Shown here: positions 16,234 to 57,500 of the stretch, piece by piece
Numbering within the stretch: the stretch's first letter is position 1
Layout of the letters: each line of letters begins with the position of its first letter
Assembly (NCBI GenBank): GCA_014905635.1
Contig: JABVCE010000002.1
Span: 930,001-994,000, forward strand
Direction: 5' to 3'
Length of the DNA stretch: 64,000 bases
Origin: Scenedesmus sp. PABB004
Lineage: Eukaryota
Made by a program: the position numbers and the translations under genes
Notes under the pieces: generated by a model
Databases searched by the model: none
What the model was told of the DNA's origin: nothing
The model's input: the letters and a program-made list of their open reading frames with translations, nothing else

Positions 16234-18382
16234 TCAGCCGAACAGCCGCGGCGCCGCGTCCGCCGCGAGCGCGCGGCACACGCCGTCGGCGTCGGTCGGC
16301 AGCGCGTCGGGCGGCAGCGGCACGTCGGGGGTGATGCCGACCTTGTTGATGTCCATGCCCGCGGGCGTCTGGTACCGCGCGACCGTGACCGCGACGCCGC
16401 TGCCGTCGCTGAGGTCGACGACCGTCTGGATCAGGCCCTTGCCAAACGTGCGCTCACCCGCGATGACGCCGCGCCGGCTGTCCTTCAGCGCGCCCGCGAG
16501 CACCTGCACAGCGCGCCGGCGGCGGCGCGGCGGCGCCGCGCTCGACGGCCGCAGCGGCGCGCGCGCGCGTGCGAGCACGGCGCGGCGCGGCGCGGCGCGG
16601 CGCGGCGCGGCGCGGCGGCGGCGGCGCGCCGCGCGCGCCTCGGACGCGCTGGCCGTGCCCCGGTTGACCAGCACGACGAGCGGCGTGGCGCTGTCGATGG
16701 AGTTGCCGTCGGCGCTGTAGATGTCGCGCACGCCCGCCGCGTCGGCGATGAGCACGAGGTCCCCGCGGTCGACCAGCATGCGCGCGACGTTCACGCCTGC
16801 GCCGCGGCGGCGGCGGTGGCGGCGCAGATGGTTCGGCGCAGAACGGGGCGCGTCGCGCCATCACCCCCGCGGCGCGCAGGGGCGGCGCGCGGTGCGGGCA
16901 GCGGCGCGCACCCGCTGGGAAGAGGCCGCCGCCGTTGTTGCGGATGTCGAGCACCAGCCCCGCCACGCCCGCCTTGTCCAGCGCCGCGAGCGCCTCCTGC
17001 GCGGCCGCGGTGGTGTTGGAGTTGAACGTCGCCAGACGCAGGTAGCCGAGCTTGCCGGGCGCCGCCGCGCCTGCGCGGCGATGCGGGCGTGGGCGGAGGG
17101 GGCGGCGCGGGCGGCGGCGCGCGGCGGCGGCGGCGAGCCCGGCGCCCGGCCCGCGCGGCGCGCGCACCCGGCGGCAGCACGGCGGGCGCGACGCCGGTGC
17201 AGGTGGCAAAGGTCACGGGGTTTATCGACACGCGCTGGCGCACGAGCTCGAGCGTCCGCGACGCGCCGGGCGCGCCCGGCGCGTGCAGCACGAGCCGCAC
17301 GGTCGAGTCTGCCGCGCCCTGCAGCAGGTCCGACGCGTCATAGAGGGACAGGCCGCGCGTGGGCGTGCCGTCCACGGAGACGAGCACGTCGCCCGCGCGC
17401 ACGCCCGCGCGGTCGGCGGGGCCGCCGGGGCTGGGCGTCTGCACCACGATGTCGTCGCCGGCGCCGCCGCCGTACGTGATCTCCAGCCCCACGCCCGTCA
17501 CCGAGCCTGGCGCGCCGCGCGGCGGCGAGCGCGGGCGGGGCGGGCCGGCCGGGGCGGGCGTCGGCGGCTGCGGCGGCGCGGCCCGCACGGCGCGCGGCCC
17601 CCTGCCCGCCAGCCGCGCCGTGCCGCGCTCAGCCGCGCGCCGCACCTGCGGTGCCCCGGCGCAGCGCCGCGAGGCGGCTGGGCTCGAGGAAGCGCGTGAA
17701 GGGGTCGTCCAGGCTGGACAGCAGCTTGCGGATCGCGTCGTACGTCTGCGCCCGGCTGGCCATGGGCTCCTTCTTCAGGTAGCTCTCACGCAGCTGCGGC
17801 GCACCGGCGGGGGGCCGCGCGTGGGCGGCGGCCGGCCGGCCGCCGCTTCGGCGCTGCGCTGCGCTTGGCGGCGCGGTGCGGTGCGGCGCGGCGGCGGCGA
17901 CAGCGGCGCGCGCCTTGAACCAGCTCTGCCCGTTGAACGTCTTGTCGACGTACGCGCGGTCCACCGCGCGCCACGCCTCCAGGAAGAGCAGCTGCTCGCT
18001 CGTCACCGCGCGCGTTGGCGGCGCGCAGGGGCCCAGCGCGACCGCCGCGGCGGCGCCCGCCGCCGCCAGGCCCAGGCCGACCTGCTGCCACAAGCTGCCC
18101 CGCTCCTGCTGCCGCTCCTGCTGCTGCTGCCCCTGCAGCAGCTGCTCCCGGCGTTGCGGCGGCGCCGCGGCTGCGCCGCGCCTGCGCGCCGGCCGCAGCG
18201 TCGGCAGCAGCGGTGTGTGGCCGGCGCGCGGGGCGGCGGCCGGCGCCGGGCGGGCAGCACTGGCGCCCGCCGCACCGTGCGCTCCCCGTCGTCGTGCCGG
18301 CCGGCCGGTCCCGGCTGCTGAAGGGCCTGAAGGCCGCGCGCGCGGCGCGCGGCGGCGGGCCGCAGCGTGTGCGCTGCTGCAT
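16234..18382 (-). CDS. ctpA: Photosystem II D1 C-terminal processing protease (peptidase S41, PDZ domain), thylakoid lumen
   Basis: Bipartite-type presequence ending ...PPTRA. Motifs QLLFLEAWRAVDRAYVDKTFNGQSW, LDDPFTRFLEP, GYLRLATFN, LDIRNNGGG, LVNRGTASASE (catalytic Ser) and GERTFGKGLIQ (catalytic Lys). Confidence 0.95.
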
Positions 18383-18668: not shown

Positions 18669-20160
18669 ATGGACCTCGACAGCGAGGTCACCGCCGACAT
18701 GGAGGAACAGCTGGAGGGGCTGGAAGGGCTGGAAGACACGGAGGATGAGATGGGCGGCGACGCGCAGCAGCAGCAGCAGCAGCAGCAGCGGCAGCCCGCC
18801 GCGCGCGACTCCGAGCCCGGCAGCACGGCGGACGCCGACGACAGCCGGCGGTGAGCGTGGGCGCTCCGCGGGGCGGGGACCGGGGGCGGCGGCGGCCGCG
18901 GGCCCCGCAGCAGCGGCCGCAGCGGCAGCAACCGCCGCGCCGCGCCGCGCCCCGCAGGTCGCGCGGCGCCTCGCCCGACGTGAGCAGCGACGGCGGGCTG
19001 GATGACTTGCGCCTGACGGCGCGGCAGCGCGCGCGCATGGAGAAGCAGCAGGGCCTCGCGGACGACGTGCAGTGGCACGAGATGGGTCTGCCTGCGGAGC
19101 TGGCCTACACGTACCGCGGCCGCGGTGCGGCCGCCCGCGCCGCCTGCTGCGCCGCGGCGCGGCGCGCCCAGGCGGCGCGGGGCGGCGCGCCCTGCCGCCC
19201 GCCCCCCGCCCGCGGCGCGGCGCGCCGAGGCCTCGCGGCGCCGCGGCGCTGCTCTGCGCGCAGACAAGAAGGCGGCGAGCCAGCTGACCGAGGAGGAGTG
19301 GCTGAAGCGACAGGAGGCCGCCGAGCGGCGCCGCCTGCGCATCCTGCGGGACAAGCGGGAAGCCGAGGAGACGGTCAAGGCAAAGATCCGCAAGGCTGTG
19401 ACCGTCAAGTTCCGGGGCAAGCTCGGCGAGGGCGCGGGCTCGGCCACCGAGGGCGAGCCGGGGCGCGCGGAGCAGGTGCGGCATCGGCGCACGGCAGCGG
19501 TGGCGGCGGCGGCGCCCGCAGCCGGGGCGGGCCGGCCTCAGCTGCTGCTGCTGCTGCTGCTGCTGCCGTCGCAGGCGCCGCTGCGGCCAGGCTGGGCCCG
19601 CGTGCGGCAGCACGCGGGGGGCGCGACCATCGCGTGGCACGCGGGCGCGCACCCGCTGTCCTTCCCCATGGCTGTGCAGGCCGGCGCCGGCCCGCCCGAC
19701 CCCGTGGGTGCGTGCGCGGCGGCAGCGTCGGCGCGGCCGCGGCGCATGCCCCTGCCCCCGCGCCGACCGGCCCGCCGCGCGCCGCCGGCCGCGCGCAGAG
19801 CTGTCGCTGCAGCCCCCGGACGGCGGCGGCGGGCCGTGGGCCGTGCCGGAGCTGAGCCGTGGCAGCTTTGCGCTCGGCTGCGCGCTGGCGCTGCAGCAGC
19901 AGCCGTCCGGCGAGCAGCTGCGCTGCGTTGACGGCAGCGGCTGGGCGGTCGGCTGCCTGCAGCTGGCAGACGTGCTGTCTGCGCTCGCGGACGCGGGGCA
20001 CGGCGGCGACGACGCGGCGGCGCTGCAGCAGCAGCTCGCGGCCGGCTGCTGGCGCGCGGTCGTGCGCAGCATACGGCGGGGCGCGGGCGCGCCGCCGGAG
20101 CAGCTGGGCGGCGTCGTGGTGCGGCTGGTGCCGTCGGCGCTAGGACGGGGGCCTGGGTGA
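18669..20160 (+). CDS. INO80 complex subunit B / Ies2 (PAPA-1 domain)-like protein
   Basis: Acidic N-terminus. LTARQRA motif, then LTEEEWLKRQEAAERRRLRILRDKREAEETVKAKI and PGWARVRQHAGGATIAW, matching PAPA-1 family architecture. The 3' exon structure is less certain. Confidence 0.7.
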
Positions 20161-20511
20161 GGTCAGCCCGGAGCTCCTGGGCAGTTCGGCGCCCCGGTGC
20201 GGCGCGCGGCGACGGGGCTGGCAGCGCGGGGCAGCCGACCAGTCGGCGCGGCGGCCGGGCGAGCGGCGCCGGCGCGAGGTCTCTGTGCGCGCGGCGCTGC
20301 CCCCGTGCGTGCCGCTGTGGTGTGCTGTGACTGCAGCGCCCCTGCCCCGCCCGGCCCAGCACGCCAGCACGCGCCACGCAGCCGGCAGCAGCGGCGGCAG
20401 CAGCGGCAGCAGCGGTCGCGCGGCGCGCCGCGTGCCGCCCGGCGCCATGGCGCTCCCGACGCGGGCAGAACTCGACGGGCTCGCAGGGCCCGTCGGCGAG
20501 CTCGCGCGCTG

Positions 20512-20533
20512 CCGGCGCGGGGCGCGGCTGAAC
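20512..20533 (+). repeat. Left direct repeat (TSD-like) CCGGCGCGGGGCGCGGCTGAAC
   Basis: Matches 21367-21387 apart from one G. Confidence 0.85.
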
Positions 20534-20535
20534 GT

Positions 20536-21365
20536 CGGTGCGGCAGGGGCGGGGGGTGCGCGGGCGCGCAGCCAGCTGCGCCGCCGGCAGGGCCAGCCGC
20601 GCGACAGGGCTGGCCCACCGCCGCCGCGTCGTCGCTGCCAGGTTTTGTCGCTGAGCGACGCCCAGCTGTCGCGGCCGCTGGTCACCTGCTCGACCGGCAA
20701 CCACGCGCTCGCGTTCATGCACGCCTGCACCGTCAGCGCCGCCGCGGCCGCGGCGGACAGCACGATCTACCTGCCCACCACGGCCAGCGAGGCAAAGGTG
20801 TCCAAGCTGCGGCGGCTCGGCGCCCGCGTCGTGCAGCACGGGGCCGACTGCGTTCTGGCGGAGGCCGAGGCGCGGCGCGTGGCGGCCGAGGCGGGCGGGA
20901 CGTACGTGAGCCCGTACAACGACTGGGAGGTCATGGCGGGCCAGGGCGGCGTCGCGGTGGAGCTGCTGCAGCAGCTGCGGGGGCGGCGCCTGGACGTGGC
21001 CATCGTGCCGGTCGGCGGCGGCGGGCTCATCGGCGGCGTCGCGGCGGTGCTCAAGGCGGCCGCGCCGGGCTGCCTGGTGGTGGGCGCGCAGCCGGCGGCC
21101 AGCGACGTCATGGCGCGCTGCGTCGCGGCGGGGCGCATCCTGGACGACGCGCCGGACAGTGACACGCTGTCGGACGCCACCGCGGGTGCGGCGCACGCGC
21201 GCGCTCGCTGGCGCGGCAGCCGGGCGCGCGCGGAGAGCGTGCGCCGAGCCGGCGCCCGCCCGTGCCGCCCGCGCAGGCGGCATCGAGCAGGGCGCGATCA
21301 CGCTGCAGCCGTGCGTCGCGCACGTGGACCGCTGGGTGAGCGTGAGCGAGCAGGACATCGCGGAC
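20536..21365 (+). pseudogene. Truncated, partly intron-less duplicate of the Ser/Thr dehydratase gene
   Basis: Near-identical to 23588-24516 but lacks intron 23867-23946, exon 1 (SFKARG, the PLP lysine) and the C-terminus. Flanked by direct repeats at 20512-20533 and 21367-21387. Confidence 0.9.
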
Positions 21366-21366
21366 C

Positions 21367-21387
21367 CCGGCGCGGGGCGCGCTGAAC
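21367..21387 (+). repeat. Right direct repeat (TSD-like) CCGGCGCGGGGCGCGCTGAAC
   Basis: Starts 1 nt after homology to the parent gene ends. Confidence 0.85.
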
Positions 21388-22129
21388 CCGCAGCTCGAAT
21401 TGGCGCGAACGGGGCCGCAAGCCCTGCGCAGCCGCCGCAGTCTCCGCCTGGCTCCCCAGAGCACCCGCCAGCGCAGCGCCGGCGCCCCCGGCTGCCCCCG
21501 GACGCCCGCGCCGCCGCCGCCCGCCGGCCGCCGCCGCGCGGCGCCCGCGATCGAACCGCGCGTCGCCGCCGAGGTCCAGGGCCGCAGCCCGCGCCGCGGT
21601 GAGTCGCTGGGGCGGGCGGCCGGGCGGGCCGGGGGCCCGCGCCTGCCGCCGCGCGCCGCGCCGCCGGCGACAGCGCGCGCGAGCAGCGCGCGCGCGTCGA
21701 GCTCCCCGCGCGCCTGGCCCGCCCGCCCCGGCGCACGCGCTGTGCGGCCAGCGGCGGGCGGCGGCCTGCCGCTCAGGCGCCGCGCCGGCGTGCCGGCGCG
21801 ACGCCGCGCCGCTGCTGTGCGCACGCGGCTATGCTTGCGCACCTACGCCGCCCACCGCCGCCCGCCGCCGCCTGTGAGCCTGTGCCAGAGAACTGCGCGC
21901 GCTCGCCCGGGTGCGGCGCCGCGCCGGCCTGGCCTGGCAGGGCGGGCGGAGAGGGCGCCGCGGCAGGCCGGGCGCGCGCAGCAGCTCCCCGCGCGCGTGA
22001 GCGCGCTGGCAGCAGCGCCCGGCACGGCCGGCAGCGGGCGGCGGCCCGGCGCTCACGCGCCTCGCCGCGCCCCGTGCCGCCCCGTGCCGCCTCAAGGTGC
22101 CGCCGCGCAGGTGACCTCACGGGCGCGCG

Positions 22130-23027
22130 ATGGGTGAGGTCTTCGACGCCGCCGCCGCCGACGATGCGTTCGTCCTGGAGTGCTTCGGCGAGATGTACGA
22201 CAAGCTGCCAAACAAGCCGCCCGGCCCCAGGCCCGACACGATCGACGGGCTCGTGCGGTCGGTCATGAACGTCACGGCACAGTGCGGCTGCACAGCAACG
22301 CGGGCGGGCAGGCGCAGCAGCGGGGCGTGCGCCGAGCGCCGCACACTCTGCGCCGCGCGCGCGCTGCGCGAGGGGCTCTCTTCCCCTCCACCCACCCACC
22401 CACCCACCCTGCTCCACCCATGCCGCCCGCCGCCCCCCCCCCTCCCCCTCTCCCCTCCCGCCGCCGCCGCCGCCGCCCCGCGCCCCAGCCGCGCGCCGCC
22501 GGAGGCCGCCAAGGGCACCTTCACCGCCGCCACCGACAACAACAACGGCGGCCTGCTCGTCAACTTTGCCAAGTGGGACATGCACGTCGGCGTGCAGACC
22601 TTCAACACGCAGGCCGACGCGGACAAGGCCGCCGCCGCCGGCCACAAGGCCATGACGGCCAAGATCGGCGAGCTCTTCAAGGGCCGCGAGCGTGAGTGCG
22701 CCGGCCGCGCGGGGACGGGACGCCCCAGGGCGAGCGAGGGGCGGCCGGGGCGGCGGCGCCGCCGGCCAGCCGCGCGGCGCGCACTGCCCCCCCCACCCCC
22801 GACCGCGCCTCTGGAGCTGCGCGGGGCACGCGCCGACGCTGCCCGCGCCGCGGCTTGGCGCGGCCGAGCATCGGGCGCGGCCCTGCCTCGACTGCTCGCC
22901 GCCGCCCGCGGCGCTGCCCGCCGCCTTGCCCCGCCACCGCCCCGCAGTGTCGCTGGCAGAGAAGGAGGACGCGCTGGCCGCGGCCCGGACGGCCGCGCTG
23001 GCCGTGCTCAAAGCCATCATCAAGTGA
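22130..23027 (+). CDS. Small protein of unknown function (3 coding exons, probable 5' UTR intron 21599-22110)
   Basis: MGEVFDAAAADDAFVLECFGEMYDKLP...NVTAH|RAPPEAAKGTFTAATDNNNGGLLVNFAKWDMHVGVQTFNT...|VSLAEKEDALAAARTAALAVLKAIIK*. Typical codon bias, canonical splice sites and a downstream TGTAA. Confidence 0.75.
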
Positions 23028-23091
23028 GCGCGCACGACTGACGTGCCGCGGCGGGCGGCGGCGGGCCGCAGAACCCTGGGCCCCGGCCATT

Positions 23092-23096
23092 TGTAA
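23092..23096 (+). terminator. TGTAA polyadenylation signal
   Basis: Chlorophyte consensus poly(A) signal 65 nt after the stop at 23027. Confidence 0.65.
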
Positions 23097-23327
23097 CCGG
23101 CCCTCTGACATGTGGCAGCTCCGGGGCACGGCCATAGCTCGCAGCCTCCCAGCTCGTGTGGCGGCCAAGCGAGAGGAGAGCAGCGGCGCGCTCGCTCCCG
23201 AGTCGAACGCGCGGCGGTGTTTGCTCTCAGCCACTTCATGCGCACAGCTGCTCGCGGGTCAGGCGATCTATCGGCCTTGAGCTGCTTTGCTCGCGGGAGG
23301 CTGTCGAGCCTACGCAGGGGCGCGGCG

Positions 23328-24708
23328 ATGAGCGCCGGCGCCGCTGCTGCCGGCGGCGGCGAGCCCGCGCAGCCCCGGGGGCTGCAGCTGGTCGCGCCCA
23401 ACGAGCTGGCCCGCGCTGCTGTCGCCGCCCACGAGCGCTGCGCGCGGCACGGCGTTCGGCGCACGCCGCTGCTCGAGGCCGCGTGGCTGTCCGCGGTCGG
23501 TGGCGGCGGGTGCGAGGCGCTGCTCAAGCTCGAGAGCGAGCAGCACACCAACTCGTTCAAGGCGCGCGGCGCGGTCAACAAGGTGCGCGGTGCGGCAGGG
23601 GCGGGGGGTGCGCGGGCGCGCAGCCAGCTGCGCCGCCGGCAGGACCAGCCGCGCGACAGAGCTGGCCGCGTGACAGGGCTAGCCCGCCGCCGCCGCGTCG
23701 TCGCCGCCAGGTTTTGTCGCTGAGCGACGCCCAGCTGTCGCGGCCGCTGGTCACCTGCTCGACCGGCAACCACGCGCTCGCGTTCATGCACGCCTGCACC
23801 GTCAGCGCCGCCGCGGCCGCGGCGGACAGCACGATCTACCTGCCCACCACGGCCAGCGAGGCCAAGGCGCGGCGCGCGCACGGCGCGGCGTGCCCGCCGC
23901 CTCGGTGGCGCGGCGCCGAGCCGGCGCCGCCGCGGCCCTCCCTCAGGTGTCCAAGCTGCGGCGGCTCGGCGCCCGCGTCGTGCAGCACGGGGCCGACTGC
24001 GTTCTGGCGGAGGCCGAGGCGCGGCGCGTGGCGGCCGAGGCGGGCGGGACGTACGTGAGCCCGTACAACGACTGGGAGGTCATGGCGGGCCAGGGCGGCG
24101 TCGCGGTGGAGCTGCTGCAGCAGCTGCGGGGGCGGCGCCTGGACGTGGCCATCGTGCCGGTCGGCGGCGGCGGGCTCATCGGCGGCGTCGCGGCGGTGCT
24201 CAAGGCGGCCGCGCCGGGCTGCCTGGTGGTGGGCGCGCAGCCGGCGGCCAGCGACGTCATGGCGCGCTGCGTCGCGGCGGGGCGCATCCTGGACGACGCG
24301 CCGGTCAGTGACACGCTGTCGGACGCCACCGCGGGTGCGGCGCACGCGCGCGCGCTCGCTGGCGCGGCAGCCGGGCGCGCGCGGAGAGCGTGCGCCGAGC
24401 CGGCGCCCGCCCGTGCCGCCCGCGCAGGCGGCATCGAGCAGGGCGCGATCACGCTGCAGCCGTGCGTCGCGCACGTGGACCGCTGGGTGAGCGTGAGCGA
24501 GCAGGACATCGCGGACGCCATGCTGAGCCTGCTGCACCACGAGAGCAAGCTCGTGGAGGGGGCGGCCGGGTGCGCCCTGGCGGCGTTCAGGGCGCTGGCC
24601 GAGGCGGGCGAGCTGCACGGCAAGCGCGTGGCGGTGGTGTGCTGTGGCGGCAACGTGTCGCCCGCGGTGCTGGCGCGCGTGCTGGCGGAGGGCCGCGTGT
24701 GGGGCTGA
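23328..24708 (+). CDS. PLP-dependent serine/threonine dehydratase (fold type II, PALP family), 4 exons
   Basis: Motifs RTPLL, LKLESEQHTNSFKARGA (PLP Lys), CSTGNHA, SPYNDWEVMAGQG, VPVGGGGLIGG, TLSDATAG|GIEQGAIT, VEGAAG and VVCCGGNV. Confidence 0.92.
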
Positions 24709-25068
24709 GCTCAGCGCGGCGTACGCGGCGGCCCCCGGCACGGCACTGGCAGCCCGGGTCGGCCCGCCAGGCCCTGCCAGGGCCTGGCGGGCGGGGCGCC
24801 GCCCTGGGCCGGGCGAGCCCCCTTCGCCAGGCGGTGGCAGCAGCAGTGTCCACACACACACACACACTGGGGGTGACGGCTGCACGGCTGCTCGCGTCGC
24901 GGTTGGGTCCTGGGGCTCTGGTCGGCGGCGGTTGGCCGGCCGCGGCGCTGTCACCTGCCTGTCACGCGGCGGTGCCGGCCCCGCCCCGCGACGGGGGAGC
25001 CGACAGCCGAGACCGTCCGGCGACAGGCACCACCAGCAGCGCGCCAGGCGTGCGCCCCGACACTCCCG

Positions 25069-25836
25069 ATGCGGCCCGCCCTCAGCGGCGGCCCCTGCGC
25101 TCCGCCGAGCCGCGTGCTCAGCGTTGGAGGCCTGACGGCGGTACCGTGCGCCCTGTCGCGGCGCGGCAGCGCGGTGCGCGCAAGCATGCGGCGGCCGGAG
25201 AGCCCGACCGAGGAGCGCGGCCTCCTGGACGCGATCGCGGACATCAAGGCCCACGGCGCCTACCCGGACGTGCTGCCGCCGCACCTCCAGCTCCCGGACC
25301 TGCAGGGCCGCCTGGCCGACACGCTGGGTGCGCGCGGCGCGGCGGCGAGCAGCGGCGCGCGCAGTTGCCGGCGGCGGCGCCAGCCGGCGGCGCCGCGGCA
25401 GCGGCGGCGGCCGGGGCGTGGGGTGGGGGCCGTCCGGCCGCGCCGGCGCAGCGCCGCCGCGCAGCGCGCGGCGCCGACGCCCGCCCGCCACCCGCCCCGC
25501 CCCCGCGCCGCGTGGCCGGCCGGCCGGCGCGCAGGCTGGGTGCGCCACGCGCTGGAGGACCCCGACGACTTCAGCAGCGCCGCGATCGGGCGCATGGTCA
25601 GCAAGGAGTACGGCCGGCACGAGCGCCCCCACACCGAGCGGCACGCGTGGCTGTCGTCGCCGCCGGGCAGCCCCGCCGCGGCGGCGGCGCGCGGCCCGGG
25701 GCAGCACGACGAGCCGCCGCCGCAGCAGCCGCAGCAGGCGCAGCAGCAGGCGCATCAGCAGGCGCAGCAGGGCGGCTGGACCTCGCCGCCCTGCGGCCCC
25801 GGCTTCCTGCGGCCCCGCGAGCCCGACGCCAAGTAG
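25069..25836 (+). CDS. Small hypothetical protein with a plastid-transit-like N-terminus (intron about 25329-25534)
   Basis: ...RRGSAVRA cleavage-like site, then EERGLLDAIADIKAHGAYPDVLPPHLQLPDLQGRLADTL|GWVRHALEDPDDFSSAAIGRMVSKEYG. Confidence 0.65.
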   Translation: MRPALSGGPCAPPSRVLSVGGLTAVPCALSRRGSAVRASMRRPESPTEERGLLDAIADIKAHGAYPDVLPPHLQLPDLQGRLADTLGARGAAASSGARSCRRRRQPAAPRQRRRPGRGVGAVRPRRRSAAAQRAAPTPARHPPRPRAAWPAGRRAGWVRHALEDPDDFSSAAIGRMVSKEYGRHERPHTERHAWLSSPPGSPAAAAARGPGQHDEPPPQQPQQAQQQAHQQAQQGGWTSPPCGPGFLRPREPDAK

Positions 25837-45723: not shown

Positions 45724-48700
45724 CTACGGCGGCCCCTGCTGCGGCGAGCCGCGCGCGAGCACGGCAAACGGCGACGCCGGCGGCGGCGCCGGCGCGCCGA
45801 CGACGCCGCAGCCCGCCGCCTCGGCGGCGGCCTCGGCGGCCGCGCAGGCCTCGGCGCCGGCGACCTCGGCGTGCTGTGCCAGCGGCACCGCCGCGCCCGA
45901 GCCGCCGGAGCCGGCCGACCTGCCGCTCGTGGCGCGAGAGCCCGGCTGGCCGCCCGACATGCTGCCGCTGATGGAGCCGCCCGAGCGCGAGCTCAGCGAG
46001 TGCTCGCGCACCGTGGTGAGCAGGGTCGTCGACGGCGGGATGACCACGAGGCGGCCAGAGGACGTGCGGTAGAAGAATCCAGGGCGCTGCTGCGACGATG
46101 CTGCAGCTGGCCCGCCGGGGCCGCTGCCGGGCACGGTGGGCGCGGCGGCGGCGCCGCCGTCGTCGCCGGCGGGCGCCGCGGTCGCCGCGCCGCCGTTGGC
46201 CGCCTGCGCGTGGCGCGCGGCGACGGCGCCCGCGCCCACCGCGCCGGCCACGCGCGCAAAGGGCGACGACGAGCGTGGCGCGGCCGCCGGCGCCTGCTGC
46301 GCTGCGGGCTGCGCAAAGGGGCTGGGCGCGGCCGCGGGCGCCGCCGCCGGCGGCGGCTGGGACGCCGCGGCCGCCGCGGCCGCGGGCCGCGCCTGCGGGC
46401 GCGCGCCCCAGCCGCCCACCCAGCCGCGCAGCCCGGCGCCCCTGCCGCTGAGCTCGGGGGGCGCGGCGGGCACCGCAGACACCACGTGCACCGTGGGCGC
46501 GGGCGGTGCGCCGCTGCCCGCGGCGTCCGCTGGCGGCCCGGGCGCGCCGGGCGTGCCGGGCCGGGCGCCGCCGGCGGTGGGCGGCAGCGTGGCGCCGGCG
46601 CCGGCGGTGCCGCCGGAGCTGCGCAGGCCGCTGAGTGCGGAGGCGCTGCTGCTGGGCAGCATCGACAGCGCCATGCTGGGCAGCTTGTCGGCGAGGACCG
46701 AGGGCAGCGTACCCGTCGTCACGCTGCCCCATGGCTCGCCGCTGGCGGCGGCGCCGAGCGCGGCCAGGCCGGGGCCGCTCGCCGTCGTCGCGAGCGCCTC
46801 CACGTAGCCCGCCGCCGCCGCCGCGTCGCCGCCGGCGGCGCTGGGGCGCGCCGGCCGGTCGCCGCGCCGCGCGGCGCGGTGCACGGTGGCCAGGTAGCCT
46901 GCGATCGGCCCCGCGTCGCCCTGGGCGGCGTGGAGGTCGGCGACGTCGCCGTACGCGGCGTTGCTGCTGCTGCTGACGGCGACGTCGCCCTCGCTGCGGA
47001 AGAGCGACTCCGACGGCAGCGGCTCGTTGTCCAGCGGCTCGATCTCGCCCCGACCCCCGCCGCCGCCGCCGCCGCCGGGCCCAGGCGGGCCGTGCGGCGC
47101 AGCGAGCGGCGGCGCGGCGCCCCACTGCTGCCGCTCAAAGGGCGGCGCCTGCTGCTGGAGGTGGAAGGGCGAGGCGCGCGGCGGCGGCGCACCGCCGCCG
47201 CGGGCGTCGGCGCGCCACGCTGGCCGGGCGGCGGGGCTGCCGCCCGGCAGCGCGCCCGACACCTGGCGCACCGCCACGGCGTGCGCCCAGGGCTGATACT
47301 CGTCCTGCCCGCCCTCCGTCCCGCCGCTGCCGCCGCCGCTGCCGCGCAGCCGCGCGGCGCCGGCGTCGCCGCTCGAGCCTGAGGCGGCCGAGGAGACGCC
47401 GGTCCGCGACTCCAAGCTCGGACGGCTGGGCTGCCCCGCGCCCGGCACGCCGGCGGCGCCCTGCCCCGGGTAGGACCAGGTGGTGAGGCTGGGCGCCGCC
47501 AGGGTGCCGCTGGCGACCTCGCGCGCGTTGCGGTAGCGGTCCGAGTCGATGCTGGACCGGTCGGCGCCGCCCGCCCCGGCGGGCCGCCGCTCGCCGCCGC
47601 CGCCCCTGCCCGCAGGCACGGCCGCGGCCGCGGCAAAGGGGCTGACGGCCGCCGCCTGCGCCGCGGCGGCGGCGGGCGAGCCGGTGCTGCGAGTGCCGGC
47701 GCTGCTGCTGGCGGGCGGGTGGACCGTCTGCCCCGGCGGGCTGCCGACCAGCGCCGCGCCGCCGCCGCCGCCGCCGGCCGCGGCCGCGGCGGTGCGCGCG
47801 GCGGCGGCGCGCTGCTTCTCAGCGACGTAGAGGCGCTGCAGGGAGCGCAGCAGCTGCTGCACGGTGGGGCGCTGCTCTGGGTCCTGGTGCCAGCAGGCGG
47901 TCATGATGGCGGCGTACCCCGGCGGGCAGCCCGGCGGCAGCGGCGGGCGCCAGGCCTGGTATGCGATCATGTAGAAGATCTGGCCGATGGACAGGCCCTC
48001 CTCAAACACGCGCGCGCCCGTCAGAAGCTCCCACACTGCGACAGCGGGCGCGCGCGCGCCGCGCGGCGGCGCGGGCGCTCGGCGGCGCCAGGCGCGTGCG
48101 CGCAGGGCGCGCCACGCAGGCGCGCAGGCGCGCAGGCAGGCGGGCGCGCAGGCGCCGCTCACTCATCAGGCCAAACGAGTAGATGTCGGTGGCCGGCGTC
48201 ATGCGCCCCGTCAGGAGCAGCTCGCTGGGCATGTACGCGATGGTGCCTGTGGCGGCAGTTGCGGCGGTTGGCGGCGGTGGTTGGGCCGCACAGGCCGGCA
48301 GCCACACGCGCGTGGCGGCCGCGGCGGCTCGCGCGCGTGCGGCGCACCGTATGTGCGCGTTGAGATGTGCGTCGCGTCGAGGTCGAGCACGCGGCTGAGG
48401 CCAAAGTCGGTGATCTTGCACGCAAAGCCGCGCACGTCGCGCGTGGAGCCCTTGAGCAGCACGTTGGCGGTCTTGAGGTCGCCGTGCACCACGCCGATGG
48501 AGTGGAGGTAGTCCAGCCCGCTCGCCGTGTCCAGCAGCGCCTTGAGGATGCCCACCTGCGGCGCGTGGGCCGGGGTCGGCGGTCAGGCGGCGCGCTCGCG
48601 CGCACGCGCGCGGGCGCGCGCGGGCGGGCGGCGGCCCCGGCGGCGGCGCACCAGCTCCGGCCGCCCGTCCTCGCGCCGCACGAACCGCCCCTGGCTGATG

Positions 48701-51700
48701 GCGCGCTCAAGGCTGCCCTTCTCGCAAAACTCCATGAGCATCCACGTCTCCAGGGCCTCGCGCTGCTGCTCCGAGTTGCTGGCTGTGCTGGCGCTGCTCT
48801 CGGACGAGCCGTCCTCCTCCGCCCCGCCGGCGACCAGCTGCGGCGCGGCCGCGAGCGCAGCGCCGCTGCCGCCGCTGCCCTTGTCGGCCAGCCAGCTGCT
48901 GGCGAGGGCGTTGCGCTGGGCGATGGTCATGGTGCTGATGTGGTACGTCTGAACCTGCGGCCGGGCGGGCGGCAGGCGATCGAGGGGCGGCGCCGGCCCT
49001 GCCAGTGCGCACTGGCAGCGCAGCATGCTGCGCGCCCCGGCCGCGGCGCCGCAGGCCGGCGCCGGCGCCGGCCTGAGCGGCGAGCCGGGCCCCGGCGCCA
49101 CACCACGTTGGGGTGCGCGACGCTCGTGGCCAGGAGCGTCTCGTTGCCGACGCTGATGCACTTGCCGCCGCTGCTGGCGGTGCCGGGCGCGCCCTCGTGG
49201 TGCTCGATGATCTTCACAGCCACCGTCACCGCCTTCCACCGGCCTGCGGCGGCAGGCGCCCGCGCGCGGGGAGGCGGCGCTCACGCAGGCGGGCAGCCTG
49301 GCGCCAGGCTCTGGGCCGCACGCTGGGCCGCCGCCCGCCGCCGGCCCCGTGCGCAGCGGCGGCGGCGCCGCACCCTTGTAGACGCGGCCGTAGCTGCCGC
49401 GGCCCAGCAGGGGGCCGATCTTGAGGTCGCGCAGCACTGCCAGCTCCGACCGCGCCTTGAGCAGCGCCGGCACGCCGCGCGTGCGGTCAGCCAGGCGGGC
49501 GCTGCCGCTGGTGCTGGCGCCCGGCTCGCCACGCGCCGGGCTGGGCGAGGTGCCGCTGCTGCCGCCAGTGCTGCCGCCGCCGCCACTGCCGCCGCCGCCG
49601 CCGCCGCTGCCCGCAGCCAGGTCATCGCCGACGGTGGCGGTCAGCACTGTGGCGGTCGCGCTGCCGGCCGTGCTGCCCGCGCTGCCGTCGCCGCCCACGC
49701 CGCTCTCCAGGCTGTTCTCGCGCGTGGCTGCGAGGACGCTGGGCGGCGAGGCGCTGCCGGCCCTGAGCCGCGCCGCGCCCGCGAGGTGCGCGGCCACCGC
49801 CAGGCTGCTGGGCTCCGGGCCCGCCTGCGCGGCGGCGGCGTCCAGGCTAAGGCGCTCAAGCGAGCTCGTCTCAGCCAGCGTCATGGCACCGCGCGCCGTG
49901 CTGCCGCTGGCGCTGCGGCTTGTGCTGTGCCACATGATCGACGACAGGGGGCTGGGCGCAGCCTGGCCGGCGCCCAGGCCAAACAGCCCAGCCCCGCCCG
50001 CAGCGCCGCCGCCGCCGCCGCCCGCGCCAGCAAAGCCGAGCGCGCCCGGCGCGGCCACTGCTTCGGGCTGCGGCGGTGTGTGCAGGCTGCCGGGGGTGCT
50101 GCCGCCGCCCTTGTCGCTGCTGCTCGGCGGGGCGGACGGCGCCGGCGTGCCTGCGGCGGCCTGCGCGCGGCGGGCGGGGGCGAGCGGCGTCGGCGCGCGG
50201 CGCGGCTTGGGCGGCGCCGGCAGCCGGGCGGCGGCGGCCGCGGGCGCTGTGTGCCCCGCACCTCGGGGCGGCCCTGGTCGCGCGAGCGGCGCGTGTCGTC
50301 GCGGTCAGCGTAGCTGGCCAGCTGCAGCCGCCCACCCTCCAGGTCCTTGGCGCGGCGGGAGGCCGCCCGAGCGGCCGGCGCGGCGCGGCGGCGCCGCCGC
50401 CGCCTGTGCGCCAGCAGGCAGGCCGCCAGGCACGCGCCCAGCGCGGCCACTACAGCGATGGGCACCGCGATTGCCGCCGCCAGGCCGCCGCCCGAGAGGC
50501 CTGCGGGCGTGACCCGCACGTGCACGTTGAGGGCGGCGCGCGCGACGGGCCGCGCCGCGCCGGCGCCGCCAGGCTGCCGCAACGGGGGCCGCGGTGCGCG
50601 CGCGCACCCGGGCCGCGCGTGGCGTTGGGCAGGCAGACAAACGTGAAGTTCTGCAGCAGCGCAGTCGCGTTGCCGGCGGTGCTGCCGGGCGCGGTGGCGC
50701 TGGCGCTGCCGTTGATGACGGCGACGCGGACCGCCAGCGGCCCGACGACGCGGCCGGCCGTCGCGTTGACCGGCTCCACCCCCCGCTCGCCCCACTGCTG
50801 GCGCATGCCGAAGACCACCCTTGCCACGTACTGCTCGCACGTGTCGACGTCCGACGGGTCCGCAAACGCGACGCCAGAGTCGCGCAGCTCGATCTGGCGC
50901 GGCGCGGCTCGTGGGCGGGGCGGCGGCCGCGGCGGCGCGGAGCGGCGGCGCGGCGGCGCCACGCGCCGCACCGTGGCGTTGGGCGCGAGGCCGATGGAGG
51001 GCCACAGCGGGTAGCCGATGCCCGCGTTGCGCCAGGGCTGCGCAGGGCTGTGCGCGTAGCTGCCCGCGGGCGCGATGTTGGCCAGGACCACGCGCTCAAA
51101 GCTCAGCACGCCGCCGGGGCCGACGAGCATGGCGGAAGGCATGCTGCCAAAGTCGAGCGTCTGCCAGGCGAGCGGGTCGTCCGGCGGGCCGTCTGGCGGC
51201 GCGTGGGCGCGGCCGGGCCGCGGTCAGGGCTGGCACGGCGTGCGCGGCGGGGCTCGAGGCCGCGCCGCCGTGCTGCTGGCGCGGGCTACCGCCGCGCGCT
51301 GCGCGGGCGCACCGCTCGTGATGGTCAAGTTGGACTTGGACACCAGCTGCGCCACGCCGCCGCTCGCGGCAAACGCGCGCCGCCACGCCTCGCCGTCCAG
51401 CGCGACGCGGTCTGCGCGCGTGCGCCGGCGTGGGCGCGGGCCGGCACGGCGCGCGCCTGCGTGGGCGGGGGGCGGCAGACCGCGCGCAGCGCGGGCGCTC
51501 GGCTCACTCTGCAGGCGCACGCTGCTGACGGAGGGGTCGAGGCAGAACTGCTGCAACCCAGATGCGCGGAAGACGAGGCGCGCTGTCAGGTTGCTCGCGA
51601 CTGCGCGGCGGTGGCGGAGCGCTCACGACTGCGCGGCGGCGGAGCGCTCGCGACTGCGCGGCGCGGCGGCGGAGCGCTCGCGACCGGCCGCCGCCAGCCG

Positions 51701-54561: not shown

Positions 54562-57500
54562 ATGCGCAGCGCGGCGGCGGCGGCGCTGCTGCTGCTGTGC
54601 GCCGCCGGTCTCGGTCTCGCCCCCCGCGCCGCGCGCGCGCAGGTGGGCGCGGCGCCGCGGGTGTTGCGCATTTGCGGAATGCAGGGCGTGACTGGCGCCC
54701 GCGCGGCTCGGCGGTCGGCGGCGGCGCTGCTCACGCTGCTCGCGCTGCGCGCCACGCGCAGTCGCCCACGCAGTTCATTCCGGCCGAGCTCTCCGGCGAG
54801 GTTTCCGCAAGGCTTGTCTTCCGGCAGGCGGTGAGCCGCGCGGCCAGTCCGGCGGTGCGCGGCGCAGCACGGCGCGCTCGGGGCGCGGGGGAGGGGCCCT
54901 GCGGCGAGTCCGGCGGCCTGCGTGCGCCGCGCCGCGCAGGGCCTCGCTGCGGCCTGGGCCGACCCGACTGCGCGGCGCGCGGTCGTGCGCGGCCGCATCG
55001 CGCTCGACGCCCCCGCCTGGCGCGGCGCCTTTGCGGCGACCGGCGGCGTCGCGGCGATGGGCGCCGACCTGCCGGGCCTGCAGAACTTTACCATCACCGG
55101 CGACGCGTGCGCCACGGACGCGTGCGGTGCCGACGCCGACACCGGCGACGGCGGCACGCCGCCGCCCGCGGCACAGCACGCGCCGGAGATTGACTTGCAG
55201 GAGACGCCCGGCGTCATGCTTGTCCGCGGCGGCGGCCTCCTCGCGCTCACGCGCCTGCGCCTGTCCAACATCGCGCCGGCGTCGGCCTACGCATACTCCA
55301 ACTCCCAGCCCGTCAAGAGCGTCGGCATCGGCACAGGCACTTGGCCCACCATCGCGCTCGCCCCCAACGCGACGGTGCGCGCGGCCGGGCGGCGCCGCGG
55401 CCGCGCCGGCGCCCCGCGACCGCCGGTCCCCCGATCGCCGTCGCATGCGCGCAGCTGGTGCTGAGCGACGTGGAGATCACGTACCGGAACCCCGCGCCCC
55501 TGGACACCTGCGAGCAGTACAACGAGCGCGCTGTGTTCGGCCTCCAGCAGGTCGGCCGCCGGACGCCCCGCGGCCGACACCCCCGGCCGCCGCTGCGCGC
55601 GCTCACGCCGCGCGGCGCCCGCGCGCCGGGCGCGCGCGCGCAGGTGTACAACGCGTCCACGGTGCTGCCCATCAACGCGACCGCGGGCCTCGTGCGCGGG
55701 CCGCTGGAGATCCGCATCGTCGTGATCAACGGCAGCGACAACTCCACCCTCGGCCTCGCGCGTGGCGTGTTTACCAACGTGCGACCGGCCGGTCGCGCGC
55801 GCGCCGTCAGCGCACGCCGCCTCCCGCCGAGTGAGTGCCAAGCACGCGCTGCCGCGCCGCAGGTCTCCTTCACCTGCCTTCCAGCGCTGCCGCAGCCCGG
55901 CGCAGGTGCGTGCGGGTTGCGCGCACGCGGTGTGGCGGCGCGGGCCCCGTCCGGCGCCCGAGCCCGCCCGGCGCGTGCGCGCGTGACCCGCGTCGCAGGC
56001 GGCCTCGCCCCAGGCGCGCTCGCGGCGGCGGTCGCGGTGCCGCTGGCCGTGGCGACGGCGCTTGGCGCGGGCCTGGTGGCGTGCCTGGCGGCGCGCCGCC
56101 GCCGCCGCGCCGCCGCCGCCGCCGCCAACGCCGCGGCCGCGGCGCCTGGCGGCGCTGGCAAGGACCTGGAGGCTGGGTTGCCCTGGCACGGCGTTGCGCG
56201 GCGGGATGTGGACGGCTGCCGCGACACCGACGCCGAGTGCGATGGGGCGCAGGCCGAGCCCGGCCTCGCGCGTGGGCCGACGGGGGTTGCAGCGAGCGCC
56301 GCTGGCAGCACGCCCTACGGCAGCAGCTTCCCAGGCAGCAGTGCCTCGGCCGCGTCGTCCACGCTGCCCGCCATGGGCCTCGCCTCGGGCGGGCTTCACG
56401 GCGAGCCCGCCACTCCGGCGCAGCTTGCAGCGCTGGCAGCCACGCCGGGACGGGGCAGTGCCGACAGCGCTGCCTGGGCCCGCGGCCGGGCGCCATCCAG
56501 CGGCGAGACCGGCAGCTTTGCCCAGGCGCAGCACGCGAGCGCCGCGCCCCCGAGCGCTGGCAGCAGTGGCGGCGTGGGCGGCAGCGACGTCACGCGTGGG
56601 GGCAGCGGCGCCGCCACGTCAACGAGCCCGGGCGGCTCAGGCACTGCGGCGCAGGGCCGCACCAGCATCGGCGCTGCGGAGCGGGCCCAGGGCGCGCCCA
56701 CGTGTCTGGCGCTGCTCAAGGCGCGGTCCGAGCTGGCGGTGCTGCGCGACCTCAAGATCGGCCCCCTGCTGGGCCGCGGCAGCTACGGCCGCGTCTACAA
56801 GGGTGCGGCGCCGCCGCGCGTGCACGGCCGGCGGCGGGCGGCGGCCCAGCGTGCGGCCCAGAGCCTGGCGACCAGGCTGCCCGCCTGCGTGAGCGCCGCC
56901 GCCCCGCGCGCGGGCGCCTGCCGCCGCAGGCCGGTGGAAGGCGGTGACGGTGGCTGTGAAGATCATCGAGCACCACGAGGGCGCGCCCGGCACCGCCAGC
57001 AGCGGCGGCAAGCGCATCAACATCAACCGCGAGAGCATGCTGGCGACTAGCATGGCGCACCCCAACGTGGTGCGGCGCCGGGGCGCGCCGCCGCGCGGGG
57101 CCGGGTGCCAGCGCGCCAGTGCTGGCGCGCTAGCGCCAGCGCGGCCGCCAGGCTCGTGCTGCGTCCTGCGAGGCGCGCCGAGCGGTGCGCGCCCGCCTGG
57201 CCGCAGGTTCAGACGTACCACATCAGCACCATGACCACGGCTGAGCGCGCCGCCCTGGCCAACACCTGGGTGCTGGAGCAGGGCGCCGAGGGCGGCAGTG
57301 GCCAGGGCCAGCAGCGCGCGCGCGGCCGGCGCGGCTCCGGCCTGGCCGGCGCCGGCGGTGACGACGACGAGAGCGGCGGGAGCAGCCGCAGCAGCGACGG
57401 CGAGCAGCGCGAGGTGCTGGAGACGTGGATGCTCATGGAGTTTTGCGAGAAGGGCAGCCTCGAGCGCGCGGTGGCGCGCGGCAAGTTTGTGCGACGCGAG

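What the first reader, a model, noticed from the sequence alone, without database searches (positions are those of the whole stretch)
20512..21387. TSD-flanked, semi-processed copy of a neighbouring gene: one intron precisely missing, flanking intron sequence kept
Seen: 20536-21365 is near-identical to 23588-24516 of the dehydratase gene about 3 kb downstream. It starts a few nt inside intron 1, keeps the rest of intron 1 and all of intron 3, but joins AAG|GTG at 20797/20798 exactly where the parent has an 80-nt GC-AG intron (23867-23946). It stops mid-exon with no poly(A) and is bracketed by a 22/21-bp direct repeat (20512-20533, 21367-21387) with only 1-2 filler bases at each junction. Established: staggered-break insertion creates such duplications, and precise intron absence is the hallmark of an RNA intermediate. 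Inference: a partially spliced nascent pre-mRNA was reverse-transcribed or used as a repair template and captured locally, by LINE machinery or RNA-templated end joining. The alternative is a DNA duplication followed by precise intron gain in the parent or loss in the copy.
Basis: partly seen in the sequence, partly recalled or inferred. Interest (0 to 1): 0.85.

Follow-up and report, generated by a model that had tools for sequence, protein, structure and literature searches.

The report
Half-spliced RNA-derived gene fragment beside its parent
An 830-base piece of a green alga's dehydratase gene sits 3 kb upstream of the gene, flanked by a duplicated target site and lacking exactly one of its introns, so it was most likely copied back into DNA from a partly spliced transcript.

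Summary
Window 20536-21365 matches parent 23588-24516 with 6 substitutions, a 17-nt and a 2-nt indel, and exact absence of the 80-nt GC..AG intron 2. A 22/21-nt direct repeat brackets it; 3 of 20000 random flank pairs score as well.

The gene is a PLP-dependent Ser/Thr dehydratase; the best protein match is named Scenedesmus sp. PABB004.

The sister sequence P0004 (ML support 99/98) carries a 44-residue read-through insert at exactly the same K|V position, starting V and ending Q as a GT..AG phase-0 intron would. So the intron appears far older than the about 0.7%-diverged duplication. Recent intron gain in the parent is therefore unlikely.

A chance deletion is also unlikely. The intron-exact deletion is one of 3957 equally or better microhomology-flanked deletions.

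Best reading: a partly spliced, non-polyadenylated, probably nascent transcript was reverse-transcribed and inserted in cis. The enzyme route is open.

Not verified: junction-spanning reads, RNA data, P0004's DNA, and a genome-wide scan; none was reachable. It is a new variant of semi-processed retrocopies and templated insertions.

The parts
20512..20533 (+). Left copy of the target-site duplication (22 nt)
   Evidence: matches 21367-21387 at 21 of 22 with one gap. 3 of 20000 random flank pairs score as high.
20534..20535 (+). Two filler bases (GT) at the 5' junction. They are either untemplated or the first two bases of intron 1 followed by a 3-nt loss.
   Evidence: no ungapped homology to the parent here. 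GT equals parent 23583-23584.
20536..20641 (+). Intron 1 remnant, from position +6 of the intron to its 3' splice site, lacking one 17-nt tandem unit
   Evidence: aligns to 23588-23654 and 23672-23710. It holds 4 of the 6 substitutions.
20642..20797 (+). Exon 2 copy (156 nt)
   Evidence: one synonymous-type difference at 20794.
20798..21185 (+). Exon 3 copy, joined directly to exon 2 (intron 2 absent)
   Evidence: window:20642-21184 translates to 181 aa with one unbroken PALP match, E 2.1e-34, profile positions 56-218.
21186..21276 (+). Intron 3 copy (91 nt, against 93 in the parent)
   Evidence: no substitutions, one 2-nt indel.
21277..21365 (+). First 89 nt of exon 4. The copy ends here without poly(A).
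21366..21366 (+). One filler base at the 3' junction
21367..21387 (+). Right copy of the target-site duplication (21 nt)
23328..24708 (+). Parent gene, a PLP-dependent Ser/Thr dehydratase-like enzyme. Exons: 23328-23582, 23711-23866, 23947-24334, 24428-24708. Introns: 23583-23710 (GT..AG, 128 nt), 23867-23946 (GC..AG, 80 nt), 24335-24427 (GT..AG, 93 nt).
   Evidence: 359-aa product, PF00291. It aligns end to end with algal homologues.
23867..23946 (+). Intron 2 of the parent, the one missing from the copy
   Evidence: No second copy of it exists in the window; the best other match is 25 nt.

Best explanation
The fragment is a semi-processed retro-insertion. A transcript of the neighbouring dehydratase gene had already lost intron 2 but still carried introns 1 and 3. 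It had no poly(A) tail, so it was most likely a nascent, chromatin-tethered RNA. This RNA was copied into DNA and inserted 3 kb upstream of its own gene, at a break with about 21-nt staggered ends. Fill-in of those ends produced the flanking duplication.

Shown here:
- the anatomy of the insert;
- the significance of the duplication;
- that the missing 80 nt is a true intron.

Strongly indicated but indirect: the intron is older than the duplication.

Inferred:
- the RNA template itself;
- that the RNA was nascent. The grounds are that it lies 3 kb from the source, has no poly(A), ends 89 nt past intron 3, and starts 0-5 nt from the 5' splice site of intron 1. That start would fit a transcript already cleaved there by the first step of splicing.

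Open: the enzyme. I put it at roughly even odds between two routes. One is nick-primed reverse transcription by a LINE or Penelope-type element. The other is a cDNA or RNA patch ligated into a staggered break.

The fragment lacks exon 1, which encodes the PLP-binding lysine motif. It cannot be an active enzyme.
For: 1. Exact intron absence. The copy joins exon 2 to exon 3 precisely where the parent has the 80-nt GC..AG intron. The joined ORF gives one unbroken PALP match.

2. The intron is older than the copy. P0004 is sister to this gene (99/98, path 0.46 changes per site). It has a 44-residue insert exactly between the homologous K and V, and it is the only one of the 40 aligned proteins with an insert there. 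The insert starts with V and ends with Q. Across all 7 complete read-through inserts I saw at three intron sites, P0004's included, 6 start with V, 1 starts with A, and 7 of 7 end with Q.

3. A chance deletion is improbable. The intron-exact deletion has 3 nt of microhomology. It is one of 3957 possible 20-200-nt deletions in the segment with at least 3 nt of microhomology; 233 of them have at least 6 nt.

4. The flanking duplication is real: 3 of 20000 random pairs match it. At 21-22 nt it is longer than the duplications I recall for cut-and-paste transposases or integrases, and within the range I recall for nick-primed reverse transcription.

5. Proximity. A random site in a 39.8-Mb genome (size from PMC12571836, passages read) lies within 3.1 kb of the parent with probability about 1.6e-4.

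6. Precise intron loss has occurred in this clade. P0004 is contiguous at the intron 1 and intron 3 sites, which this gene and more distant relatives occupy.
Against: - No sequencing reads of the organism could be laid on the junctions. No RNA data were reachable.
- P0004's intron is inferred from a protein. Its DNA could not be fetched.
- There is no poly(A) tail, which processed copies made by L1-type elements carry.
- The intron that was removed has the weaker GC donor, while two GT introns stayed.
- Nearness and same orientation are also what a DNA-level local duplication gives.
- The left repeat copy resembles the end of the parent's exon 1 (17 of 20). This could hint at homology-guided template switching. 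It is weak: 642 of 20000 random pairs score as high.
- The genome is reported to hold only 1.31% repeats, so sources of reverse transcriptase may be scarce.
- Substitutions are uneven: 5 in the 260 nt before the junction against 1 in the 570 nt after it (Fisher p 0.013). Later gene conversion may therefore blur the age estimate.
Confidence: 0.68

Rival explanations
1. A DNA-level local duplication copied the segment with all its introns. The mechanism would be replication template switching or synthesis-dependent repair that used the nearby gene as filler. Intron 2 was then removed precisely from the copy in a second event. That event would be conversion by a spliced cDNA or a microhomology-mediated deletion.
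For: - The copy is close to the parent and in the same orientation, and has no poly(A).
- There is a 17-of-20 resemblance between the left repeat and the parent's exon 1 end.
- A 3-nt AGG microhomology flanks the intron.
- Precise intron loss has occurred in this clade.
Against: - It needs two rare events within about 0.7% divergence.
- The second event must hit a non-functional fragment, where no selection favours precision.
- The exact deletion is 1 of 3957 equally or better flanked deletions.
- The flank resemblance is weak (642 of 20000), and the junction sequence does not follow from simple annealing there.
Confidence: 0.12
2. A DNA-level local duplication came first. The parent then gained intron 2 recently, so the copy preserves the ancestral intron-less state.
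For: - 12 demonstrably genomic relatives have no intron at this site.
- The site AAG|GTG is a proto-splice site.
- The intron has an unusual GC donor.
- Intron positions turn over in this group.
Against: - The sister sequence P0004 has an intron-like insert at the identical position and phase. This rival therefore needs two independent gains at one site in sister lineages.
- No second copy of the 80 nt exists in the 64-kb window.
Confidence: 0.08
3. It is an assembly or polishing artefact and is not present in the organism's chromosome.
For: No read-level confirmation was possible. The public gene model across the region is clearly poor.
Against: I know of no assembly error that produces a target-site duplication, an exact splice join, six substitutions and two further indels relative to the parent, all in one place.
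Confidence: 0.05

Closest known systems
Semi-processed retrocopies or pseudogenes. Examples are rodent preproinsulin I and the human TMF1 insertion in CYBB (PMC4151081, passages read).
   Same: Both are copies of a gene that lack some introns precisely, keep others, and are flanked by a target-site duplication. Both are taken to derive from an incompletely spliced transcript.
   Different: The described cases end in poly(A) and lie far from the parent. This one has no poly(A), is cut at both ends (inside intron 1 and inside exon 4), and lies 3 kb upstream of its parent in the same orientation.
Templated sequence insertions, classes 1 and 2 (PMC5110952, passages read)
   Same: In both, non-transposon RNA is copied into DNA and inserted. 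Class 2 shares the lack of poly(A) and the few untemplated bases at the junctions. Class 1 shares the target-site duplication.
   Different: This insert fits neither class as defined. Class 1 requires poly(A) and a cryptic signal. Class 2 has no target duplication. This insert has a 21-22-nt duplication and no poly(A).
Retrogenes of green algae (Chlamydomonas and Volvox survey, PMC4972966, abstract and passages read)
   Same: Both concern RNA-based gene duplication in chlorophytes.
   Different: That survey looked for whole, mostly old and functional intron-less genes. In the passages I read, no fragmentary, partly spliced, TSD-flanked copy next to its parent is described.
Intron loss by recombination with a cDNA
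   Same: Both involve precise removal of single introns through a reverse-transcribed spliced RNA.
   Different: In that model the cDNA replaces the gene's own sequence. Here it was integrated beside the gene as a separate fragment.

Membership tests
Processed or semi-processed retrocopy (L1-type retroposition) | One or more introns are precisely absent relative to the parent | tested here: met
   intron 2 is exactly absent. Introns 1 (partial) and 3 are kept.
Processed or semi-processed retrocopy (L1-type retroposition) | Flanking target-site duplication | tested here: met
   21 of 22 matching; 3 of 20000 random pairs reach the score.
Processed or semi-processed retrocopy (L1-type retroposition) | 3' poly(A) tail | tested here: not met
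   the copy ends inside exon 4 and is followed by one base and then the repeat. There is no A-run.
Processed or semi-processed retrocopy (L1-type retroposition) | A reverse-transcriptase source (LINE or similar) exists in the genome | not testable with these tools
   No whole genome is held. Reported repeat content is 1.31%.
Class 2 templated sequence insertion (break repair patch) | No target-site duplication; microhomology or untemplated bases at the junctions; no poly(A) | tested here: not met
   Fillers of 2 and 1 nt and the lack of poly(A) fit. A 21-22-nt duplication is present. Definition from PMC5110952.
DNA-level segmental duplication | The copy is colinear with the genomic parent, introns included | tested here: not met
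   an 80-nt intron is missing exactly.
Recent intron gain or introner insertion in the parent | The intron is absent from the closest relatives' orthologues | tested here: not met
   Sister P0004 has an intron-like insert at the same site. This is inferred from protein, not DNA. Twelve more distant relatives lack it.
Recent intron gain or introner insertion in the parent | Many similar copies of the intron sequence exist in the genome | tested here: inconclusive
   None in the 64-kb window; the best other match is 25 nt. The genome itself was not available.
PLP-dependent Ser/Thr dehydratase family (PF00291), parent gene | Match to the PALP profile above the curated cut-off, with the lysine motif | tested here: met
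   One search gives matches for the exon pieces. One search gives 272 bits for the public model. The motif with the lysine lies in exon 1 (translation); its role as the PLP-binding lysine is recalled. The name bhcB is the source's own label.

The most novel reading that the evidence does not exclude
The template was a splicing intermediate still tethered to its gene. Exon 1 had already been cut off at the 5' splice site of intron 1, intron 2 was fully removed, and intron 3 had only just been transcribed. On this reading the fragment is a DNA fossil of one co-transcriptional splicing state. It would have been written into the chromosome in cis by nick-primed reverse transcription.

Such cis-integrated, half-spliced copies could then act as standing donors for gene conversion. 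That would make them the physical intermediate of single-intron loss, in a clade where intron sites visibly turn over.
Probability: 0.2. Interest if true: 0.75.

Novelty: new variant of a known kind. Interest (0 to 1): 0.55.

Why it matters
Precise intron loss is usually explained by reverse-transcribed RNA, but the intermediates are almost never caught.

This is a young, well-preserved insert. Its ends, retained introns and position all point to an unfinished transcript captured next to its own gene, in a repeat-poor, 79% G+C green alga.

If reads confirm it and a genome-wide scan finds further cases, two things would follow. It would show that nascent RNA can be written back into nearby DNA in algae. 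It would also give a testable route for intron turnover.

It also flags a faulty public gene model. That model fuses several genes, counts the fragment as coding exons, and skips exon 2 of the real gene.

Tried and rejected
- Whole genome: none is held. No genome-wide scan was possible for other such fragments, for reverse transcriptases, or for copies of the intron.
- Sequencing runs: one run was listed, a freshwater metagenome holding 5% of the words. No RNA holder was listed.
- Laid reads: laying that run gave mostly low-complexity pieces from other organisms. One 278-nt contig was identical to 23099-23376. Nothing covered the junctions or an empty site.
- Metagenome scan: I used an alignment of algal proteins, hoping to fetch P0004's contig and other algal loci. 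It returned 80 loci, all at 36% identity or less and apparently bacterial. A single-protein query would have been the better choice.
- Introner idea: introns 2 and 3 share an exact 16-mer. Matches of 15-16 nt are common in this window, so I rejected it as chance.
- Homology-guided template switching at the left junction: the resemblance of the left repeat to the parent's exon 1 end is not convincing (642 of 20000 random pairs).
- Pfam on 48 ORFs around the site: hits in 3 of 48. One is a PDZ ORF and two are the dehydratase pieces.
- Upstream gene: I recalled a PAPA-1-like domain for it.
- Second duplication in the window (inverted, 46.5-49.8 kb against 56.4-59.8 kb): it shows no clean intron-sized indel.
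- Earlier findings of this scan: nothing was returned in three look-ups.

Full report
**What is there**

The window is 79.3% G+C. Copy 20536-21365 aligns to 23588-24516 in four blocks totalling 829 columns plus one further matching base. There are six substitutions. The parent has three stretches that the copy lacks:
- 17 nt (23655-23671), one unit of a tandem repeat inside intron 1;
- 2 nt in intron 3;
- 80 nt.

The repeat finder gives the same blocks. A self-BLAST of the whole window finds this pair and only one other duplication.

**The parent gene**

From the sequence and a script translation, the parent has exons 23328-23582, 23711-23866, 23947-24334 and 24428-24708. This gives 1080 nt, or 359 codons plus stop. 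The introns are 128 nt (GT..AG), 80 nt (GC..AG) and 93 nt (GT..AG).

The exon pieces match Pfam PF00291. The best database hit carries the source name bhcB [Scenedesmus sp. PABB004]. A comparative paper lists that genome as 39.8 Mb, 77 contigs, 78.5% G+C and 1.31% repeats (PMC12571836, passages read).

The copy's exon 2+3 ORF (181 aa) matches the PALP profile without a break, positions 56-218. Eighty is not a multiple of three. So the 80 nt is a true intron, and the copy carries the spliced join AAG|GTG at 20797/20798.

The copy lacks exon 1, which holds the lysine motif. It is therefore a dead fragment.

**The flanks**

20512-20533 and 21367-21387 match at 21 of 22 with one gap. There are two filler bases on the left and one on the right.

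In this low-complexity DNA, exact 15-mers of the repeat occur elsewhere in the window, so I tested the repeat in place. Of 20000 random pairs of 25-nt flanks at the same spacing, 3 reach the observed score. The duplication is real. There is no A-run at the 3' end.

**Is the intron older than the copy?**

No eukaryotic genomes can be read with these tools. I therefore used ORFs that prokaryote-style gene callers made on algal contigs, because such ORFs read into or through introns.

I followed four intron sites:
- Site A: NK|VLSL (intron 1).
- Site B: K|V (intron 2).
- Site C: NDWE|V.
- Site D: TAG|G (intron 3).

Site B is contiguous in 12 relatives. Each of these also shows a read-through or a truncation at another site, so they are genomic rather than cDNA:
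- P0188, P0228, P0229, P0240, P0128, P0130 and P0125;
- P0017, P0286, P0290 and P0296;
- P0382.

These relatives have site C instead, which this gene lacks.

One sequence differs. P0004, from a metagenome, has an insert between the homologous K and V. It is the only one of the 40 aligned proteins with an insert there. The insert is 44 residues long in the pairwise alignment. It starts with V and ends with Q, as a GT..CAG phase-0 intron would when translated. Across all seven complete read-through inserts seen at sites A, B and C, six start with V, one starts with A, and all seven end with Q.

An ML tree of 35 rows by 180 columns left out the insert columns and masked the read-through tails. 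It puts P0004 as sister of this gene with 99/98 support, at a path length of 0.46 changes per site.

One gain in their common ancestor is the simple reading. The intron would then be far older than a duplication with six substitutions in 830 nt. Recent gain in the parent would need a second, independent gain at the same site in the sister lineage.

P0004 is contiguous at sites A and D. This gene and more distant relatives occupy those sites. Precise intron loss has therefore happened in this clade.

**Could the copy have lost the intron by a plain deletion?**

The intron-exact deletion is flanked by 3 nt of microhomology (AGG). The parent segment offers 98275 distinct deletions of 20-200 nt. 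Of these, 3957 have at least 3 nt of microhomology and 233 have at least 6 nt. The copy is non-functional, so nothing would select for precision. A chance hit is unlikely.

**Mechanism**

The simplest account is an RNA template that had lost intron 2 but not introns 1 and 3. Four features point to an unfinished, locus-bound transcript rather than a released mRNA:
- There is no poly(A).
- The 3' end lies only 89 nt past intron 3.
- The 5' end lies 5 nt inside intron 1. It could be 0 nt, if the filler GT is the intron's own GT followed by a 3-nt loss. By my arithmetic, a uniform break point over about 1190 nt falls within 0-5 nt after one of the three donors about 1.5% of the time.
- The site is 3.1 kb from the source. 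The chance of landing that close in 39.8 Mb is about 1.6e-4.

A 5' end at the donor would fit a transcript already cut by the first splicing step. This is inference only.

The 21-22-nt duplication needs a staggered break. By recall, that length suits nick-primed reverse transcription by LINE-like elements and is longer than transposase or integrase duplications. The 1-2 filler bases and the missing poly(A) suit end joining of a cDNA patch just as well. The insert fits neither class of templated sequence insertion as defined in PMC5110952 (passages read). Class 1 has a duplication plus poly(A). Class 2 has neither.

**Points against, and loose ends**

- No reads of the organism and no RNA data were reachable.
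- P0004's DNA could not be fetched.
- The left repeat resembles the parent's exon 1 end at 17 of 20. However, 642 of 20000 random pairs do as well, and the junction does not follow from annealing there.
- Substitutions are uneven: 5 in the 260 nt before the join and 1 in the 570 nt after it (p 0.013). Put another way, 4 lie in the 106-nt intron 1 remnant and 2 in the other 724 nt (p 0.003). Later gene conversion of the longer block, stopped by the 80-nt heterology, could explain this. It would make the insert somewhat older than 0.7% suggests. The near-intact duplication still argues that it is young.
- The 80-nt intron has no other copy in the window. The rest of the genome is untested.

**Context**

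The public 1201-aa model P0001 fuses several units:
- an upstream gene (18669-20121) that is conserved with Tetradesmus obliquus;
- the fragment, used as coding exons;
- a small coding-like unit (22490-23024);
- the parent gene with exon 2 skipped, apparently to avoid the GC donor;
- downstream sequence.

The same upstream gene sits fused to the dehydratase in the two T. obliquus models. Gene order is therefore conserved, and the insert lies between the two genes.

**Comparison with what is known**

Semi-processed pseudogenes that keep some introns are described in mammals, with poly(A) and distant insertion (PMC4151081, passages read). A survey of green-algal retrogenes looked at whole intron-less genes (PMC4972966, abstract and passages read).

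My searches for partly spliced retrocopies turned up no fragmentary, poly(A)-less, TSD-flanked, partly spliced copy lying next to its parent. Four word searches of an open-access library do not prove that none is in print.

**Verdict**

An RNA origin is supported at about 0.68. The enzyme route is open. I class it as a new variant of a known kind. Interest is moderate and would rise if a genome-wide scan finds more cases.

Noticed in passing
window 18669-25833: The public 1201-aa model (P0001, named bhcB by its source) fuses an upstream conserved gene, the fragment, a small coding-like unit, the parent gene and downstream sequence. Within the parent it joins exon 1 straight to exon 3 (23583-23946 treated as one intron). 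This skips exon 2, apparently to avoid the GC donor.
   Followed up: yes
window 46501-49775 and 56416-59783: An inverted duplication of about 3.3 kb. It has 232 mismatches in 2702 aligned columns and many 15-55-nt indels. No clean intron-sized difference is present.
   Followed up: partly
proteins P0004, P0017, P0125-P0130, P0188, P0228, P0229, P0240, P0286, P0290, P0296, P0382: Intron sites in this dehydratase turn over among Scenedesmaceae-like algae. The K|V site is occupied only in this gene and its sister. The NDWE|V site is occupied in the others and empty in these two. P0004 also lacks the intron 1 and intron 3 sites.
   Followed up: partly
window 23655-23688: Intron 1 of the parent holds two 17-nt tandem units where the copy has one hybrid-looking unit. 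It is not resolved whether the parent gained a unit or the copy lost one.
   Followed up: no
window 22490-23096: Coding-like sequence of ordinary composition (22490-22690, 22950-23024) has no Pfam match. It is followed at 23092 by TGTAA, which I recall as the green-algal poly(A) signal. This is probably a small separate gene between the fragment and the parent.
   Followed up: partly
window 20447-21385: An ATG at 20447 opens a 312-codon frame. It runs through the left repeat, the intron 1 remnant and the exon 2+3 copy, and then on into the intron 3 copy and beyond to the stop. In 79% G+C DNA, long open frames are expected by chance.
   Followed up: no
window 23099-23376: A 278-nt contig of a freshwater metagenome run (X1) is identical to this stretch. 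The alga or a very close relative therefore occurs in that sample at low depth.
   Followed up: no
window 16791-17774, minus strand: An ORF with a PDZ domain (PF17820, E 6.5e-16).
   Followed up: no
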